From positions 1-35,266 of the IMG/VR virus record IMGVR_UViG_2645727970_000011: DNA of 35,266 bases, one strand, 5' to 3'. The position numbers were made by a program, and so were the translations under genes. A model generated the notes under the pieces. The model had not been told where the DNA came from, did not search any database, and saw only the letters and a list, made by a program, of their open reading frames with translations. Below are positions 1,208 through 19,443 of this stretch, piece after piece. This DNA comes from a virus (taxonomy: Duplodnaviria > Heunggongvirae > Uroviricota > Caudoviricetes). Position 1 is the first letter of the stretch. Each line of letters starts with the position of its first letter.

Positions 1208-1519
1208 TCAGGCTGCTGAGGTTTCTTCTTTCAGGCTTTCGATATATTTACGTGGGTCGTCGTAACATTGGCATTCGCTGTACCAATCTACCCAGCGATC
1301 CGTAAGCCCCATCTCTGATAAATCTTCATCAGTAATGCTCTCATCCCACATCTCAAGGCCGTTAGCATTGCAGTAGTCAGGCTTGATATTGTTGTCATAC
1401 TGAAAGGCATCATAATCAGCCAGTGCATCCATCAGGCGAACACCCTCTTCAACACTTGCCACTTCTACAATGAACGGCTTCATAGGAACTTGCGGGATAT
1501 GCCAGACACGTAATTTCAT
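1208..1519 (-). CDS. Hypothetical acidic protein (103 aa)
   Basis: Track ORF starting at ATG 1519 with a GGAGG SD just upstream (complement of 1524..1528); no recognisable family. Confidence 0.6.
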   Translation of the reverse strand: MKLRVWHIPQVPMKPFIVEVASVEEGVRLMDALADYDAFQYDNNIKPDYCNANGLEMWDESITDEDLSEMGLTDRWVDWYSECQCYDDPRKYIESLKEETSAA

Positions 1520-2180: not shown

Positions 2181-2206
2181 AAAAATAAAGGCCGACTATG
2201 CGGCCT
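2181..2206 (-). terminator. Rho-independent terminator on the minus strand, overlapping the stop of the upstream gene
   Basis: aggccg (2189..2194) / cggcct (2201..2206) stem with 6-nt loop, followed on the minus strand by uuauuuuu (plus-strand 2181..2188). Confidence 0.6.
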
Positions 2207-2819
2207 CGGAAGGAAGTCCAATCATCTTATTCAAATCTTCTACCCGTAAAGCAGGAAGTGCTGTACTTGCTTTATCTGCTTCTTTTGGTAGCAATTCTTT
2301 GCTTTCAGGCCAAACTTCAATAAGTCGCTTAACTGTTGTGACTGAGTTCAAAGCAGCCCATACATTTGATTCGATATCCTTTTTCTTGGCTTCAAGTTTT
2401 TGTTGCAATGCGCAGATTTCATCAAACCTTTTTGTTATTTCGTGTTCTGCGTCAAACATGCATTTATCTTTTTCTGGGGTGGGGAGCAATATATCTTCAC
2501 CGTTGCCGTCTTTTCCGTATGAATGCCAGCCAACCCTTCTTCCAGATACAGTCAGATAAATCGAAGCAGAACGAACATCGCATGAGTAAAATGAACATCC
2601 CATCTTCTCAAGTTCTTCACTTATAGCTGCTAACTTGGATGATAACCGATCCACTTCCTCAGTTTTCTTTTTACCGCCAAACGCAATAACTCTGGCGTCA
2701 AGTGCAAGCTGGTTCTTTAACTTTGTTACTTCTTCAAGTTCAGTGAAAACCCCAGACTTAATTAAAGCGTTACGAGCGATTTCCTCTTTCATTCTCGTAG
2801 TTAAGCGGATTGATGACAT
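2196..2819 (-). CDS. Hypothetical protein (~207 aa) of the pL operon
   Basis: Track ORF 2196..2834 begins with TTG; an in-frame ATG at 2819 has a GAGG SD 7 nt upstream, giving MSSIRLTTRMKEEIARNA...; no recognised family. Confidence 0.6.
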   Translation of the reverse strand: MSSIRLTTRMKEEIARNALIKSGVFTELEEVTKLKNQLALDARVIAFGGKKKTEEVDRLSSKLAAISEELEKMGCSFYSCDVRSASIYLTVSGRRVGWHSYGKDGNGEDILLPTPEKDKCMFDAEHEITKRFDEICALQQKLEAKKKDIESNVWAALNSVTTVKRLIEVWPESKELLPKEADKASTALPALRVEDLNKMIGLPSEAA

Positions 2820-2955
2820 ATTAATTCCTCTCAAATAAGTGGTTTGCTGCCTAATTTCATTTTCTGGCGACCAACACAGGTCACACCCATTTCACTGCGT
2901 GGCTTGCGGTAGTAAATACGGTTATTTATGTCATTAAAAACCAGCGTGAGCGTGG

Positions 2956-3222
2956 TTATTTTTTCTTTCCAAGAGATGGAAGCCCTCCAGAATAATCTGG
3001 ACCACTTGAACGATGCATTTGATACAATATTGCGTTTTTGTTGGCGTTTAGTGGCTTTGTTGCGAAAGAAATTTTTTCTCGTTTTACATCTCTTATCATC
3101 ATCAACTCACGTTCTGATGCTTTTGGATGATAATCATTGATATGCTTCCATGCTGCCTTGGCGCTGAATTTTCTTCCACATAAAGGGCAATAGCATTTAT
3201 ATGATACTTGTTTGCTAGTCAT
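2956..3222 (-). CDS. Small C2H2-type zinc-finger-like protein (88 aa)
   Basis: Translation contains YKCYCPLCGRKFSAKAAWKHINDYH, i.e. C-x2-C-x12-H-x4-H spacing of a classical C2H2 finger; the ATG at 3222 lies 2 nt after the N stop, so it is co-transcribed from pL. Confidence 0.6.
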   Translation of the reverse strand: MTSKQVSYKCYCPLCGRKFSAKAAWKHINDYHPKASERELMMIRDVKREKISFATKPLNANKNAILYQMHRSSGPDYSGGLPSLGKKK

Positions 3223-3224
3223 TT

Positions 3225-3533
3225 CTATCTCGCCGTAATTGATTTCATTGACCTGTAACCAGCAGCATACAGTGCAACTTCAGGCAAACAAACGCTTCCG
3301 CCATTCGCATCTGTATTTGATTTACTGATGATGCCGAGTGATATTGCTTTTTCAGAAAGACTTAAACGCTTTCTCGGTTCTTCCTGAACAGCTTCCTCAC
3401 TGTCTGTGCCGAAGATCGAATCGATGATGTTGCAGATGGAATCACGCTCGATAGCCAGCTTTCTGCGCCGCTCATGACGGCGAGTTTTGGCATTTCCTGC
3501 AAATGTTGATTTTCCGTACACGATTACCGTCAT
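3225..3533 (-). CDS. N: N-type transcription antiterminator (P22 gene 24-like), 102 aa
   Basis: Internal ATG at 3533 with GAGGA SD 7 nt upstream; arginine-rich motif GNAKTRRHERRRKLAIER matches the P22 N boxB-binding peptide as I recall it; the track ORF extends upstream from a GTG and that N-terminal extension is rejected. Confidence 0.85.
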   Translation of the reverse strand: MTVIVYGKSTFAGNAKTRRHERRRKLAIERDSICNIIDSIFGTDSEEAVQEEPRKRLSLSEKAISLGIISKSNTDANGGSVCLPEVALYAAGYRSMKSITAR

Positions 3534-3652: not shown

Positions 3653-3687
3653 GCGCTTTGTCAGCGCCCCATCGAAGTTAAAGAGCC
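3653..3687 (-). promoter_or_regulatory. nutL site: boxA plus boxB
   Basis: Minus strand reads GGCTCTTTAAC (boxA-like, 3677..3687) then GCGCTGACAAAGCGC (3653..3667), the P22-type boxB-left hairpin from memory; positioned between pL and N. Confidence 0.8.
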
Positions 3688-3732: not shown

Positions 3733-3761
3733 ATAGTACGATGTGTGCTTTATTGAGTCAA
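3733..3761 (-). promoter_or_regulatory. pL-like leftward early promoter with overlapping operator
   Basis: Minus strand reads TTGACT (3761..3756), a 17-bp spacer, then TACTAT (3738..3733); the spacer holds an AGTAC-containing motif that recurs in the cI-cro intergenic region. Confidence 0.6.
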
Positions 3762-3821: not shown

Positions 3822-3856
3822 TTTGGAAAAAGAAAACCCGACGCTAAGGTCGGGTT
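3822..3856 (-). terminator. Rho-independent terminator downstream of cI
   Basis: Minus strand: stem acccgac / gtcgggt (3835..3842 with 3849..3856), 6-nt loop, then a U-rich tract (uuuucuuuuucc). Confidence 0.7.
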
Positions 3857-17244: not shown

Positions 17245-19443
17245 ATGGCAGAAAAAAAGATGACTGACTGGCATCGCAAGGTGCTGTGCAACTTTGATAA
17301 TGCCTGGTCAGCAACGCAGGATATGCGTAAGCAGATTATTGAGGCTCAACGTTTCGTCCGGGTGTCCGGCGCACAGTGGGAAGGCAGCACAAACGCTGGT
17401 TACTCATTTGATGAAGGCAGGTTTGAGCATTACCCGCGCTTTGAACTGAATAAGATTGCCCGTGAATGTGATCGCATCATTGGCGAGTATCGACAGAATC
17501 GCATCAGCGTTAAATTCAGGCCGAAGGATGACAAGGCATCGGAAGCGTTAGCCGAAAAGATGAACGGCAAATTCCGCGCTGATTATCAGGAAACATCCGG
17601 TGGCGAAGCGTGTGATAACGCATTTGATGATGCTGTAACGGGCGGATTCGGTTGTTTCCGCATGTGTGCTGATTACGAAGATGAAATGGATCCGAGTAAC
17701 GAGCAGCGACGCATCAGCCTTCTTCCTGTTTACGACCCGGCGACATGCGTCTTCTTCGATCAGGACAGCAAGCAATATGACCGCTCTGATGCCATGTGGG
17801 CTATGGAAATGTTCTCCATGACGCCTAAAGCGTTCGAGGCTGAATACCCTGATTCCATCGCGGCAAGCCTTTCTCGTGATGACACTGGTACTCGGTATGA
17901 CTGGTCAACGCCTGACGCCATCTATGTTGGACGCTACTACGAAGTCCGCATAGAGAAGGTGAAGCTCACAGCATGGCGTAACCCTGTCAGCGGAGAAACG
18001 GCAATCTATGATGAAGAGCAAATCAAAGATATTGTCGACGAGCTGACCGATGGTGCATTCGAACTGATTGGCGAGCGAACGGTGAAGAAACGCCGAGTTT
18101 ATTGCGGTCTTCTGTCTGGCGCTGAATGGCTGGAAGAACCGAAGCGTATTCCGGGCGAACATATTCCTCTCATCCCGGTATATGGGCGTCGTTCATTTGT
18201 TGATAATCAGGAGCGAATCGAAGGCCACGCAGCAAAAGCGATGGATGCACAGCGTCTTGAGAACCTGATGGTTTCCATGATTGCAGATAACGCTACTCAG
18301 GCTGGCGGCGATGGCATTCCTGTAGTTGATGTTGACATGATTCCTGGTCCTCTTGCCACTCATTGGGCGGAGCGCAACAAAAAGCGCCCGGCGTTCCTGC
18401 CGATGGTCAGTTTGAAAAACAAAAACGGAGATATTACTGCGCAGGCTCAGGTCAGCAGTTATACGCCTTCGACACAAATGCCTCCAGCTCTTGCCGGGCT
18501 ATTGCAGTACACCGGAACGGCTATTCAGCAAATTACAGGTGCGTCGCAGCTTGAGAACATGCCGAGCAACGTCGCCACCGATACCGTTGATAGCATCTTT
18601 AACCGGATGGACACGCAGTCCTATATCTACATGGACAACATGGCTAAATCCATGCGCCGTGCTGGCGTCGTGTGGCTTTCTATGGCTCGTGAAGTCTATG
18701 GCAGCGATACGCCAATGCGCATCGTTAATGAGGATGGCAGCGATGACGTGGCGCTGATGACTGGTGAAGTGGTTGACCGTCAGGCAGGGCAGGTTATCGC
18801 GCTTAACGACCTTTCGCAGGGTAACTATGAAGTGACTGTCGATGTCGGTCAGTCGTTCGCTACTCGCCGTGATGCAACGGTTAAGTCGTTACTTTCCATG
18901 CTGGCACTTATCCCGCCAGGAACGCCGAAGCATGACCTTGTATCATCGATGATTCTCGACAATATGGACGGCGAAGGGATGGACGACCTGAAAGAATACA
19001 ACCGCAATCAGTTGCTTCTGTCTGGCGTTATCAAGCCGAGAACGCCTGAAGAACAGCAAATGGTTGAGCAGGCGAAACAACAACAGGCCAGTCAGCCAGA
19101 TCCGGCTATGGTTGCAGCGCAAGGTCAGCTTCTTGCAGGTCAGGCTGAATTGCAGAAAGCGCAGAACGAACAGGCAGCCATTCAGGTTAAAGCATTCCAG
19201 GCACAGACTGATGCTCAGGTTGCAGCGGCAAACGTTGTGAAAATCCTCGCATCTGCCGATAGCCAGCAGAAATCTGATATCCGCGAGGCTCTGAAACTGC
19301 TCGGACAGTTCCAGCAACAGCAAGGAGACAATGCCCGTGCTGATGCAGAGCTTGTCCTGAAAAGTCAGGCACAGGGTCATGCGCAGCGCATGGACATCAG
19401 CAGCATCCTGCAAAAATCAACTCAGCAACAACCACAGCAGTAA
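17245..19443 (+). CDS. Portal protein, P22 gp1-like (732 aa)
   Basis: Segments RRRVYCGLLSGAEWLEEPKRIPGEHIPLIPVYG and C-terminal EEQQMVEQAKQQQASQPDPAMVAAQGQLLAGQAELQKAQNEQ resemble the P22 portal as I recall it. Confidence 0.9.
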   Translation: MAEKKMTDWHRKVLCNFDNAWSATQDMRKQIIEAQRFVRVSGAQWEGSTNAGYSFDEGRFEHYPRFELNKIARECDRIIGEYRQNRISVKFRPKDDKASEALAEKMNGKFRADYQETSGGEACDNAFDDAVTGGFGCFRMCADYEDEMDPSNEQRRISLLPVYDPATCVFFDQDSKQYDRSDAMWAMEMFSMTPKAFEAEYPDSIAASLSRDDTGTRYDWSTPDAIYVGRYYEVRIEKVKLTAWRNPVSGETAIYDEEQIKDIVDELTDGAFELIGERTVKKRRVYCGLLSGAEWLEEPKRIPGEHIPLIPVYGRRSFVDNQERIEGHAAKAMDAQRLENLMVSMIADNATQAGGDGIPVVDVDMIPGPLATHWAERNKKRPAFLPMVSLKNKNGDITAQAQVSSYTPSTQMPPALAGLLQYTGTAIQQITGASQLENMPSNVATDTVDSIFNRMDTQSYIYMDNMAKSMRRAGVVWLSMAREVYGSDTPMRIVNEDGSDDVALMTGEVVDRQAGQVIALNDLSQGNYEVTVDVGQSFATRRDATVKSLLSMLALIPPGTPKHDLVSSMILDNMDGEGMDDLKEYNRNQLLLSGVIKPRTPEEQQMVEQAKQQQASQPDPAMVAAQGQLLAGQAELQKAQNEQAAIQVKAFQAQTDAQVAAANVVKILASADSQQKSDIREALKLLGQFQQQQGDNARADAELVLKSQAQGHAQRMDISSILQKSTQQQPQQ

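What the first reader, a model, noticed from the sequence alone, without database searches (positions are those of the whole stretch)
2956..3222. C2H2-type zinc-finger protein directly downstream of N
The 88-aa product carries a textbook C-x2-C-x12-H-x4-H spacing (CPLCGRKFSAKAAWKHINDYH), a fold common in eukaryotes but rare in bacterial and phage proteins. It is the first gene after N in the pL operon, the slot where lambdoid phages often place host-takeover or anti-restriction genes, so a role in nucleic-acid binding or anti-defence is plausible. This is untested.
Basis: partly seen in the sequence, partly recalled or inferred. Interest (0 to 1): 0.5.

Follow-up and report, generated by a model that had tools for sequence, protein, structure and literature searches.

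The report
Zinc-finger gene co-transcribed with phage N
A real, conserved 88-residue zinc-finger-like protein is made together with the phage antiterminator N in the first early transcript; it belongs to an unstudied family found only next to the N/Nun transcription-control genes of lambda-like phages, so it probably acts on transcription, though this is untested.

Summary
The ORF is real: window 2956-3222, minus strand, 88 aa, starting 2 nt after the stop of a P22-type N gene. The four ligands are nevertheless conserved down to about 26% identity. AlphaFold predicts a beta-beta-alpha finger, a second helix and a disordered basic tail. Substitution patterns show purifying selection. The family has no Pfam model (phrog_20899, unknown function) and is confined to Enterobacterales lambdoid phages. 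It has two clades. Clade B, including this ORF, ends in SGGLPSLGKK[KR], follows N directly, and is usually followed at once by an intrinsic terminator, so it belongs to the immediate-early pL-nutL-N unit. Clade A sits where nun sits in HK022-type phages that use put RNA, and often carries the C-terminal tail of P22-type N. In sibling prophages the same post-N slot holds a Nun homolog. My best reading, with confidence about 0.37, is a factor acting on the transcription elongation complex, either Nun-like or N-modulating. Nothing specific supports anti-defence. It is not Ral. Function is inferred from context only.

The parts
2956..3222 (-). ORF88: coding sequence for an 88-aa small basic zinc-finger-like protein (stop codon included)
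   Evidence: Listed as an ORF. Matches phrog_20899 full length at E=2e-64. Annotated as a hypothetical protein in RefSeq and GenBank. The exact sequence is seen on 849 contigs. pN/pS is 0.24 against the 68%-identical homolog, and pI is 9.9.
3127..3189 (-). Putative zinc-binding motif C12-x2-C15-x11-H27-x4-H32, predicted as a beta-beta-alpha finger spanning residues 9-32
   Evidence: Regex match. The ligands are conserved in alignments A2, A4 and A6. AlphaFold predicts strands 9-11 and 18-20 and a helix at 24-31, with pLDDT about 88.
3073..3114 (-). Second helix, residues 37-50 (ERELMMIRDVKREK). It carries the family signature AS[DE]xxLxxIRDa[KR]R.
   Evidence: AlphaFold helix 37-50. L40, I43, R44, D45 and R48 are invariant in A2. 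It lies inside the region that aligns between the two clades at hhalign E=3.9e-25.
2959..2991 (-). Conserved C-terminal peptide SGGLPSLGKKK, residues 78-88, at the end of a disordered tail
   Evidence: G79, G80, P82, S83, L84, G85, K86 and K87 are invariant in clade B down to 39% identity. The peptide is kept through many synonymous codon changes. AlphaFold predicts disorder, with pLDDT 56-62.
2934..2957 (-). Weak hairpin plus T-run that abuts the ORF88 stop codon. It is a degenerate counterpart of the strong terminators found at this position in relatives.
   Evidence: Fold energy -6.3 kcal/mol, not better than shuffled sequence. Homologous positions in L010, L068, L074, L076 and L077 carry stem-loops of -11 to -20 kcal/mol followed by a T-run.
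3225..3533 (-). P22-type antiterminator N gene (102 aa from the ATG at 3533). ORF88 starts 2 nt after its stop codon.
   Evidence: PF25694 N_peptide at E=6.5e-37. Sequence read.
3653..3686 (-). nutL: boxA-like GCTCTTTAAC (3677-3686) and boxB hairpin GCGCTGACAAAGCGC (3653-3667) in the pL leader
   Evidence: Read directly from the sequence. Identifying this hairpin as the P22 boxB rests on my own recall of the P22 N-boxB literature.
3733..3761 (-). pL-like sigma-70 promoter (TTGACT, 17 nt spacer, TACTAT) that drives nutL, N and ORF88
   Evidence: Consensus scan. It lies between the cI terminator at 3835-3856 and nutL.
2831..2914 (-). Fossil 3' end of a lambda-type N gene (YYRKPRSEMGVTCVGRQKMKLGSKPLI*). 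It marks the mosaic boundary of the N-ORF88 module.
   Evidence: Translation. BLASTP against a lambda-type N C-terminus gives E=8e-8 with 56% identity. The same junction sequence occurs in L015 and L051.

Best explanation
ORF88 is a translated, immediate-early accessory protein. It is transcribed from pL together with N. It probably depends on translational coupling to N, given the 2-nt gap. It lies before the first leftward terminator, so it is made before and independently of antitermination. It has three parts: a single Zn-binding beta-beta-alpha finger (C12, C15, H27, H32), a conserved basic helix (IRDxKR), and a disordered lysine-rich tail ending in the invariant peptide GGLPSLGKK[KR]. 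I think it most likely acts on the transcription elongation complex, as the neighbouring small disordered basic proteins N and Nun do. In this model the finger and helix dock on nascent RNA or on an RNAP/Nus surface, and the C-terminal peptide acts as the effector on RNA polymerase. The outcome would be either Nun-like interference with rival lambdoid phages or a general modulation of termination that does not depend on N type. What is shown: the gene is real, it is conserved, the fold is predicted, the operon position holds across relatives, and it is homologous to the nun-slot proteins. What is inferred: zinc binding, the target, and the direction of the effect.
For: (1) The gene is real and under selection. 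The Cys/His ligands are conserved to about 26% identity. pN/pS is 0.24, and dN/dS is 0.06 in the one pair where synonymous sites are not saturated. The C-terminal peptide is kept through many synonymous changes. (2) The position is conserved. In 28 viral contigs and several genomes, clade-B genes follow N with gaps of -4 to 34 nt. They do so behind at least five N types with different arginine-rich motifs. One truncated contig (L067) holds only a partial N, and in L052 the ORF scan did not show N directly upstream. (3) A strong intrinsic terminator abuts the stop codon in L010, L068, L074, L076 and L077. The same holds after HK022 nun and after the Nun-like gene of L014. (4) The same slot holds a Nun homolog in E. 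coli E94, which matches PDB 6alg chain N at E=5.4e-5. L076 has the order lambda-type N, Nun-like gene, finger gene. (5) Clade A is homologous to ORF88 over residues 7-64 (hhalign E=3.9e-25). Its genes lie directly after put-like RNA elements, where HK022 has nun. (6) Many clade-A proteins end in the C-terminal tail of P22-type N. BLASTP gives E=1e-5, Pfam N_peptide gives E=0.007-0.008 aligned to the profile end, and hhalign gives E=2e-4. This is a domain-fusion link between the finger module and the C-terminal tail of N, which by analogy with lambda N I take to contact RNA polymerase. (7) The protein has pI 9.7-10.2 and a disordered tail, like N and Nun.
Against: There is no sequence similarity between ORF88 itself and N or Nun. 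Its own tail differs from the N-like tail of clade A. All functional evidence is positional or by fusion in a paralogous clade. No promoter that would express it in a lysogen was found, and a strong terminator follows cI. Classical Nun-type exclusion by a repressed prophage is therefore not supported. The hairpin after ORF88 in this window is weak. The finger deviates from canonical C2H2, and structure searches gave no significant match. No put-like element or other candidate target RNA was found in the window.
Confidence: 0.37

Rival explanations
1. ORF88 is an anti-defence or host-takeover protein. Made in the first seconds of infection, it binds and inhibits a host protein such as a restriction or defence system, a protease or a nucleoid protein, through its finger or its C-terminal peptide.
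For: It is expressed immediate-early and independently of N. It is an accessory gene with patchy distribution: 14 complete E. coli genomes carry it, against 48 that carry this N. It sits in a variable cassette slot where different genes alternate. Small size and a disordered tail are typical of phage inhibitors.
Against: It matches nothing in PADLOC, NCBIfam or Pfam anti-restriction families. Ral is present in addition, further downstream, in relatives. The only alternative occupant of the slot whose function is known is a transcription factor, Nun. This idea does not explain why clade A is fused to the N C-terminal tail.
Confidence: 0.2
2. ORF88 is a sequence-specific or structure-specific DNA-binding regulator. 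In the manner of GAGA factor or Ros/MucR, it would use a single finger plus basic flanking regions to repress or activate a phage or host promoter early in infection.
For: The predicted beta-beta-alpha finger is followed by a basic helix and tail, and pI is about 10. The top, non-significant structural neighbours are DNA-binding C2H2 fingers.
Against: It does not match the Ros/MucR model, and the spacing is non-canonical. I identified no conserved candidate operator. The family is tied to N, nun and put rather than to any promoter region. The N-tail fusion in clade A has no obvious role for a DNA-bound repressor.
Confidence: 0.15
3. ORF88 is a dedicated cofactor or stabiliser of its own N protein. 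It would protect N from Lon or help N-nut complex assembly, which would explain the tight translational coupling.
For: The 2-4 nt gap to N is conserved in several lineages, and the two genes share one transcript. A single Enterobacter kobei record encodes an in-frame N-finger fusion of 188 aa.
Against: Only about 29% of complete E. coli genomes with this N carry ORF88. Nearly identical finger proteins follow N proteins with different arginine-rich motifs (L074 against L075), and another follows a lambda-type N plus a Nun-like gene (L076). Clade A exists in phages with no N at all. The finger therefore does not co-vary with N or boxB specificity.
Confidence: 0.1
4. ORF88 is a spurious or decaying ORF with a chance Cys/His pattern.
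For: The family is narrow. Some copies are damaged: P0003 has a scrambled finger, P0004 and P0007 are frameshifted, and phiKp_30 has a replaced C-terminus.
Against: Homologs in several genera of Enterobacterales conserve the ligands. Substitutions show purifying selection with abundant synonymous change. The exact protein occurs on 849 contigs.
Confidence: 0.03

Closest known systems
HK022 Nun (transcription arrest and superinfection-exclusion factor; PDB 6ALG)
   Same: Both are small, basic, largely disordered early proteins encoded as the gene between the nut/put-(N) region and the first pL terminator. A Nun homolog occupies exactly ORF88's slot in the E94 prophage and sits beside a clade-B finger gene in L076. 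Nun's C-terminus is reported to include a zinc-binding motif and functionally important C-terminal lysines; I take this from the titles of Watnick et al. 2000 and Kim and Gottesman 2004 in the reference list of PMC5386594.
   Different: There is no sequence similarity. ORF88 has no arginine-rich motif and lacks the HxxxxHxH...KKW C-terminus. Its expression from a repressed prophage is not evident.
P22/lambda-type N antiterminators (Pfam PF25694 N_peptide)
   Same: ORF88 shares a transcript with N and is translationally coupled to it. The clade-A relatives of ORF88 carry the N C-terminal motif LPxVAxYAAGYR..TAR. Both are disordered basic proteins.
   Different: ORF88 itself has no match to N. 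A finger replaces the arginine-rich motif, and the tail is a different peptide.
Classical C2H2 zinc fingers (PF00096 and relatives such as zf-Di19), and prokaryotic Ros/MucR fingers
   Same: It has the Cys2-His2 ligand order, a predicted beta-beta-alpha fold and a conserved Phe four residues after the second Cys.
   Different: The inter-ligand spacer is 11 rather than 12 residues. All profile scores are below their cut-offs. It is a single finger in an 88-aa phage protein. It does not match Ros/MucR.
Small zinc-binding phage regulators such as P2 Ogr / P4 Delta and Mu Com (recalled from my own knowledge, not tested here)
   Same: They are phage proteins of 60-90 aa whose single zinc site supports binding to RNA polymerase or RNA in order to control transcription or translation.
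   Different: They use Cys4 ligands and unrelated sequences, and they belong to different phage groups and regulatory positions.
Lambda Ral (PF11058), the classical gene downstream of N
   Same: It is a small Cys-containing early pL protein located near N.
   Different: Ral lies after the terminator. It co-occurs with the finger gene in L011-L013. There is no similarity.

Membership tests
Classical C2H2 zinc finger (Pfam PF00096 / zf-C2H2 clan) | Ligand spacing C-x2-4-C-x12-H-x3-5-H | tested here: not met
   The spacing is C-x2-C-x11-H-x4-H in ORF88 and in all family members. The x12 regex finds nothing.
Classical C2H2 zinc finger (Pfam PF00096 / zf-C2H2 clan) | Profile score above the curated gathering threshold | tested here: not met
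   zf-C2H2 scores 14.1 bits against 25.2. zf-C2H2_4 scores 14.9 against 27. The best match, zf-Di19, scores 19.6 against 27.5. The same weak families recur in 11 of 13 members.
Classical C2H2 zinc finger (Pfam PF00096 / zf-C2H2 clan) | Beta-hairpin plus helix (beta-beta-alpha) fold that positions two Cys and two His | tested here: inconclusive
Classical C2H2 zinc finger (Pfam PF00096 / zf-C2H2 clan) | Binds one Zn(II) ion | not testable with these tools
   This needs metal analysis of purified protein and ligand mutants.
PHROG phrog_20899 (unknown function) | Full-length profile match | tested here: met
   E=2e-64, residues 1-88 aligned to profile positions 1-88 of 88.
N antiterminator (Pfam PF25694 N_peptide) | N-terminal arginine-rich motif and a profile match | tested here: not met
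   ORF88 does not hit N_peptide even at E<=10. hhalign of clade B against an N alignment gives E=0.57. No arginine-rich motif is visible in the sequence.
N antiterminator (Pfam PF25694 N_peptide) | C-terminal CLPxVALYAAGYR..TAR tail | tested here: not met
   The tail is absent from ORF88 and clade B. It is present only in clade-A relatives.
HK022 Nun | Sequence similarity, including the C-terminal HAHQRNPxKKW motif | tested here: not met
   A Nun HMM finds L014, L076 and HK022 but nothing in the window. The PDB sequence search with ORF88 does not hit chain 6alg_N.
HK022 Nun | Gene position between nut/put-(N) and the first pL terminator | tested here: met
   A Nun homolog sits in the identical slot in L014.
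HK022 Nun | Arrests RNA polymerase on rival phage templates and is expressed in lysogens | not testable with these tools
   This needs reporter and plating assays. The consensus scan found no separate promoter.
Ral (Pfam PF11058) restriction alleviation | Profile match, and occupation of the ral position | tested here: not met
   There is no hit. Ral is encoded separately, downstream of the finger gene, in L011-L013.
Known anti-defence or defence families (PADLOC, NCBIfam) | Profile match | tested here: not met
   NCBIfam gives no match. PADLOC gives only a chance-level hit at E=0.038.

The most novel reading that the evidence does not exclude
The ORF88 family is a previously unrecognised class of lambdoid-phage transcription-elongation factors, in which a single zinc finger takes the place of the arginine-rich motif of N and Nun. 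Clade A (finger plus the C-terminal tail of N, sitting in the nun slot of put-RNA phages) and clade B (ORF88: finger plus the invariant peptide GGLPSLGKK[KR], made with N from the immediate-early transcript) would dock on elongation complexes. There they would either arrest transcription of rival phages, as a Nun-like weapon used during co-infection or co-induction of polylysogens, or reprogram termination independently of N type.
Probability: 0.3. Interest if true: 0.8.

Novelty: new variant of a known kind. Interest (0 to 1): 0.55.

Why it matters
Lambda's immediate-early leftward transcript is the textbook case of a one-gene unit that encodes only N. Here a second conserved protein is built into that unit in many E. 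coli and Salmonella prophages, including relatives of Shiga-toxin phages. Its relatives sit in the place of nun in phages that antiterminate with put RNA, and these relatives carry the C-terminal tail of N. If the family acts on RNA polymerase, it would add a zinc-finger-based member to the N/Nun paradigm. It would also give a new handle on how co-resident lambdoid prophages compete during induction, which bears on Stx phage induction. If instead it is an anti-defence protein, it would be one of the earliest-expressed ones in lambdoid phages. Either way it is a cheap, well-defined target: 88 aa, four ligand residues and one 10-residue peptide to mutate.

Tried and rejected

2. The PDB sequence search gave only chance-level C2H2 hits at E>=0.056.

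3. NCBIfam and PADLOC gave nothing.

4. I first read the inverted repeats linking the pL leader and the region downstream of cro in clade-A phages as new nut sites, and clade A as a 'zinc-finger N'. I rejected this when the elements proved to be HK022 put-like. The L015 leader is 96% identical to putL, and an nhmmer profile of the elements hits HK022 putR at E=1e-6. Clade A therefore sits in the nun slot, not the N slot.

5. Rfam has no match for these elements.

6. I considered that ORF88's tail (GGLPSL...) is a truncated N tail (GGSVCLPEVAL...). hhalign does not support this (E=0.57).

7. dN/dS could not be computed for most pairs because synonymous sites are saturated. I used pN/pS and one unsaturated pair instead.

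8. The genome-contig scan found no relative.

9. Literature searches for the motif strings, and for zinc fingers near N or Nun, found nothing. The King et al. 2000 paper on nun promoters is not held.

10. The terminator after ORF88 in this window is weak and not better than shuffled sequence. It counts only as the positional counterpart of strong terminators in relatives.

Full report
**Observation**

The window holds an 88-codon ORF at 2956-3222 on the minus strand. Its product is MTSKQVSYKCYCPLCGRKFSAKAAWKHINDYHPKASERELMMIRDVKREKISFATKPLNANKNAILYQMHRSSGPDYSGGLPSLGKKK. The ATG lies 2 nt after the stop codon of a 102-aa N gene at 3225-3533, which matches Pfam PF25694 at E=6.5e-37. That N gene is preceded by a boxA-like GCTCTTTAAC, by the hairpin GCGCTGACAAAGCGC, and by a pL-like promoter. 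I recognise the hairpin from memory as the P22 boxB.

There are 11 residues between C15 and H27, giving C-x2-C-x11-H-x4-H. A regex for the textbook x12 finds nothing in the window. All Pfam zinc-finger models score below their curated cut-offs; the best is zf-Di19 at 19.6 bits against 27.5. A second strict-motif match at 19344-19406 looks like chance.

**The gene is real and conserved**

The ORF matches phrog_20899 (unknown function) over its full length at E=2e-64. It is annotated as a hypothetical protein in Klebsiella phage phiKp_30 and in RefSeq E. coli genomes. The exact protein occurs on 849 contigs, with source names from E. coli and Salmonella. It is present in 14 of 5,426 complete E. 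coli genomes.

A word-indexed search found only 7 clusters. An exhaustive HMMER scan of 1.84 billion representatives also found small homologs of 60-90 aa down to about 38% identity. A profile search placed these in Proteus, Pantoea and Arsenophonus as well as E. coli, and a cluster look-up added Enterobacter and Salmonella.

Across 13 members, F19, H27, I28, H32, L40, R44, D45 and R48 are invariant. C12, P13 and C15 are at least 90% conserved, and the only exception is an N-terminally truncated call.

Against the 68%-identical E. coli variant, pN is 0.21 and pS is 0.91. The one unsaturated pair gives dN/dS of 0.06. The last 11 residues are kept through many synonymous codon changes.

AlphaFold, using a 13-sequence alignment, predicts strands 9-11 and 18-20, a helix at 24-31 and a second helix at 37-50, with pLDDT 85-89. 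Residues 51-88 are predicted disordered. pI is 9.9. Structure-library searches were not significant; the top hits are mostly C2H2 fingers.

**Two clades**

hhalign joins the two clades over ORF88 residues 7-64 at E=3.9e-25.

*Clade B.* This clade includes ORF88 and ends in the invariant peptide [SQ]GG[LIA]PSLGKK[KR].
- In the related loci, which include 28 viral contigs, the clade-B gene lies just downstream of an N gene, with gaps of -4 to 34 nt.
  - It does so behind at least five N types with different arginine-rich motifs.
  - Two viral contigs are unclear: L067 is truncated and holds only a partial N, and in L052 the ORF scan did not show N directly upstream although an N match is present nearby.
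- The one real exception is L076, where the order is lambda-type N, then a Nun-like gene, then the finger gene.
- A strong intrinsic terminator abuts the stop codon in L010, L068, L074, L076 and L077 (-11 to -20 kcal/mol).
  - The same is true after HK022 nun and after the Nun-like gene of L014.
  - In this window the corresponding hairpin at 2934-2957 is weak (-6.3 kcal/mol) and no better than shuffled sequence.
- The conserved unit is therefore pL-nutL-N-finger-terminator, which is the immediate-early transcript.
- Ral, where present, lies after this terminator.

*Clade A.* This clade is the first gene leftward of the repressor in seven groups of loci, and no N gene precedes it there.
- Its leaders, and the regions downstream of cro, share elements that I first took for new nut sites.
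- They are in fact HK022 put-like antiterminator RNAs.
  - The E. coli prophage L015 carries one of these elements downstream of its cro, and its pL leader is 96% identical to HK022 putL.
  - A profile built from 25 unique elements hits HK022 putR at E=1e-6 and hits nothing in N-type loci or in the window.
- HK022 has the order cI, putL, nun. Clade A therefore occupies the nun slot.
- Of 22 viral contigs that carry the element, 16 encode a clade-A-type finger, in most of them directly downstream of the element.
- Many clade-A proteins end in the C-terminal tail of P22-type N.
  - For example, SILPQVAQFAAGFRKPTETVTAR compares with the window N tail CLPEVALYAAGYRSMKSITAR at BLASTP E=1e-5.
  - Pfam N_peptide hits these tails at E=0.007-0.008, aligned to the end of the profile.
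  - hhalign of the clade-A alignment against an N alignment gives E=2e-4.
- ORF88's own tail shows no such similarity.

**The slot**

In E. coli E94, a nearly identical N is followed 2 nt later by a different gene. This 92-aa arginine-rich protein has a C-terminus that matches HK022 Nun (PDB 6alg chain N) at E=5.4e-5.

This N type occurs in 48 complete E. coli genomes, and ORF88 in 14 of them, so ORF88 is an optional cassette.

Directly downstream of ORF88, at 2831-2914, lies the fossil 3' end of a lambda-type N gene. It matches at E=8e-8, and the same junction occurs in L015 and L051. The module nutL-N-ORF88-hairpin has therefore replaced the 5' part of an older N gene.

**Interpretation**

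The following points are shown by the analysis:
- It is a real, selected gene for a small basic protein.
- Four conserved zinc ligands sit in a predicted beta-beta-alpha fold.
- It lies inside the immediate-early N unit.
- It is homologous to proteins in the nun slot of put-type phages.
- It alternates with, or sits beside, Nun homologs.

From these I infer that the family acts on the transcription elongation complex. The strongest single argument is the fusion of the same finger module to the N C-terminal tail in clade A. In lambda N the C-terminal region contacts RNA polymerase. I assume the same for this tail by analogy, and neither point was checked here.

According to PMC5386594, Nun blocks superinfection by lambda. 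It binds boxB RNA through an arginine-rich motif and stalls RNA polymerase through its C-terminal segment.

Several observations argue against ORF88 being a specific cofactor of N:
- Nearly identical finger proteins follow N proteins with different arginine-rich motifs.
- One clade-B protein follows a lambda-type N and a Nun-like gene.
- Clade A exists in phages with no N at all.

Several observations argue against Nun-type exclusion by a repressed prophage. No separate promoter was found, and a strong terminator follows cI. If the protein is an exclusion factor, it would act during infection or during co-induction. That last step is speculation.

The anti-defence idea has only positional support.

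My confidence in the elongation-complex model is about 0.37. I could find no publication on this family.

Noticed in passing
window 2831-2914 (minus strand): A fossil 3' end of a lambda-type N gene (YYRKPRSEMGVTCVGRQKMKLGSKPLI*) lies just after ORF88 and overlaps the start region of the next gene. It matches a lambda-type N at BLASTP E=8e-8. It marks a mosaic junction that is also seen in STEC-like prophage L015 and in Wanchaivirus L051.
   Followed up: yes
L014 2579-2857 (E. coli E94 prophage); L076 3682-3975: Nun homologs (arginine-rich N-terminus, C-terminus ...VNHAHQR(N/R)PxKKW) are encoded directly after N genes in N-type prophages. They are therefore not confined to put-type HK022. In L076 the order is lambda-type N, Nun-like gene, finger gene.
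   Followed up: partly
L003 5864-5950 and 4509-4587; L019 5886-5956; 22 viral contigs L028-L049: HK022 put-like antiterminator RNA elements occur in prophages of Proteus and Pantoea and in uncultured viral contigs. They show compensatory changes in stem I (CGGCN/N'GTCG). Rfam has no model that matches them. The nun slot in these phages is filled by clade-A finger proteins, several of which carry an N-like C-terminal tail.
   Followed up: partly
P0054 (Enterobacter kobei, 188 aa): This is an in-frame fusion of N and a clade-B finger protein, in which N's ...VTAR stop is replaced by ...VTGEVV-M.... It is seen in a single record. It could be a natural fusion or a sequencing error.
   Followed up: no
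L075 2005-2408; L077 and L079 3998-4475: Tandem paralogs occur here. A clade-B finger gene is followed 29-49 nt later by a short finger gene (57 aa in L077 and L079; a 42-aa remnant in L075) that lacks the C-terminal motif.
   Followed up: no
L015 2067-2510; L051 1418-1861: In E. coli put-type phages similar to HK022 in the put/immunity region, the nun slot holds an unrelated 147-aa protein with no Pfam match, followed by a strong terminator. In Wanchaivirus PDP110P2 a short 54-aa finger gene follows it, after the fossil N end.
   Followed up: no
window 2196-2819 (minus strand); L005 7773-8393: The next gene after ORF88 encodes an Nmad5 protein (nucleotide modification associated domain 5, E=5.9e-71). 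An Nmad5 gene also lies two genes downstream of the clade-A finger gene in a Proteus prophage.
   Followed up: no
window 1208-1519 (minus strand): This is a homolog of P22 gp17 (superinfection exclusion gene product 17, PF17420, E=1.6e-55). Together with the matches to Lederbergvirus phage phiKp_30 and to podophage vB_EcoP-683R2, it suggests that the window comes from a P22-like prophage.
   Followed up: no
L001 1689-1982 (Klebsiella phage phiKp_30); proteins P0003, P0004, P0007: Several copies are damaged. phiKp_30 has the C-terminal motif cut and replaced (GGLPS|DYLLDTCNIYNKAA). P0003 has the finger scrambled by what looks like a double frameshift. P0004 and P0007 are frameshifted in the tail. 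The gene is therefore dispensable in at least some contexts.
   Followed up: no
window 19344-19406 (plus strand): A second C-x2-C-x11-H-x4-H match (CRACPEKSGTGSCAAHGHQQH) lies inside the 732-aa ORF at 17245-19443. It is probably chance.
   Followed up: no
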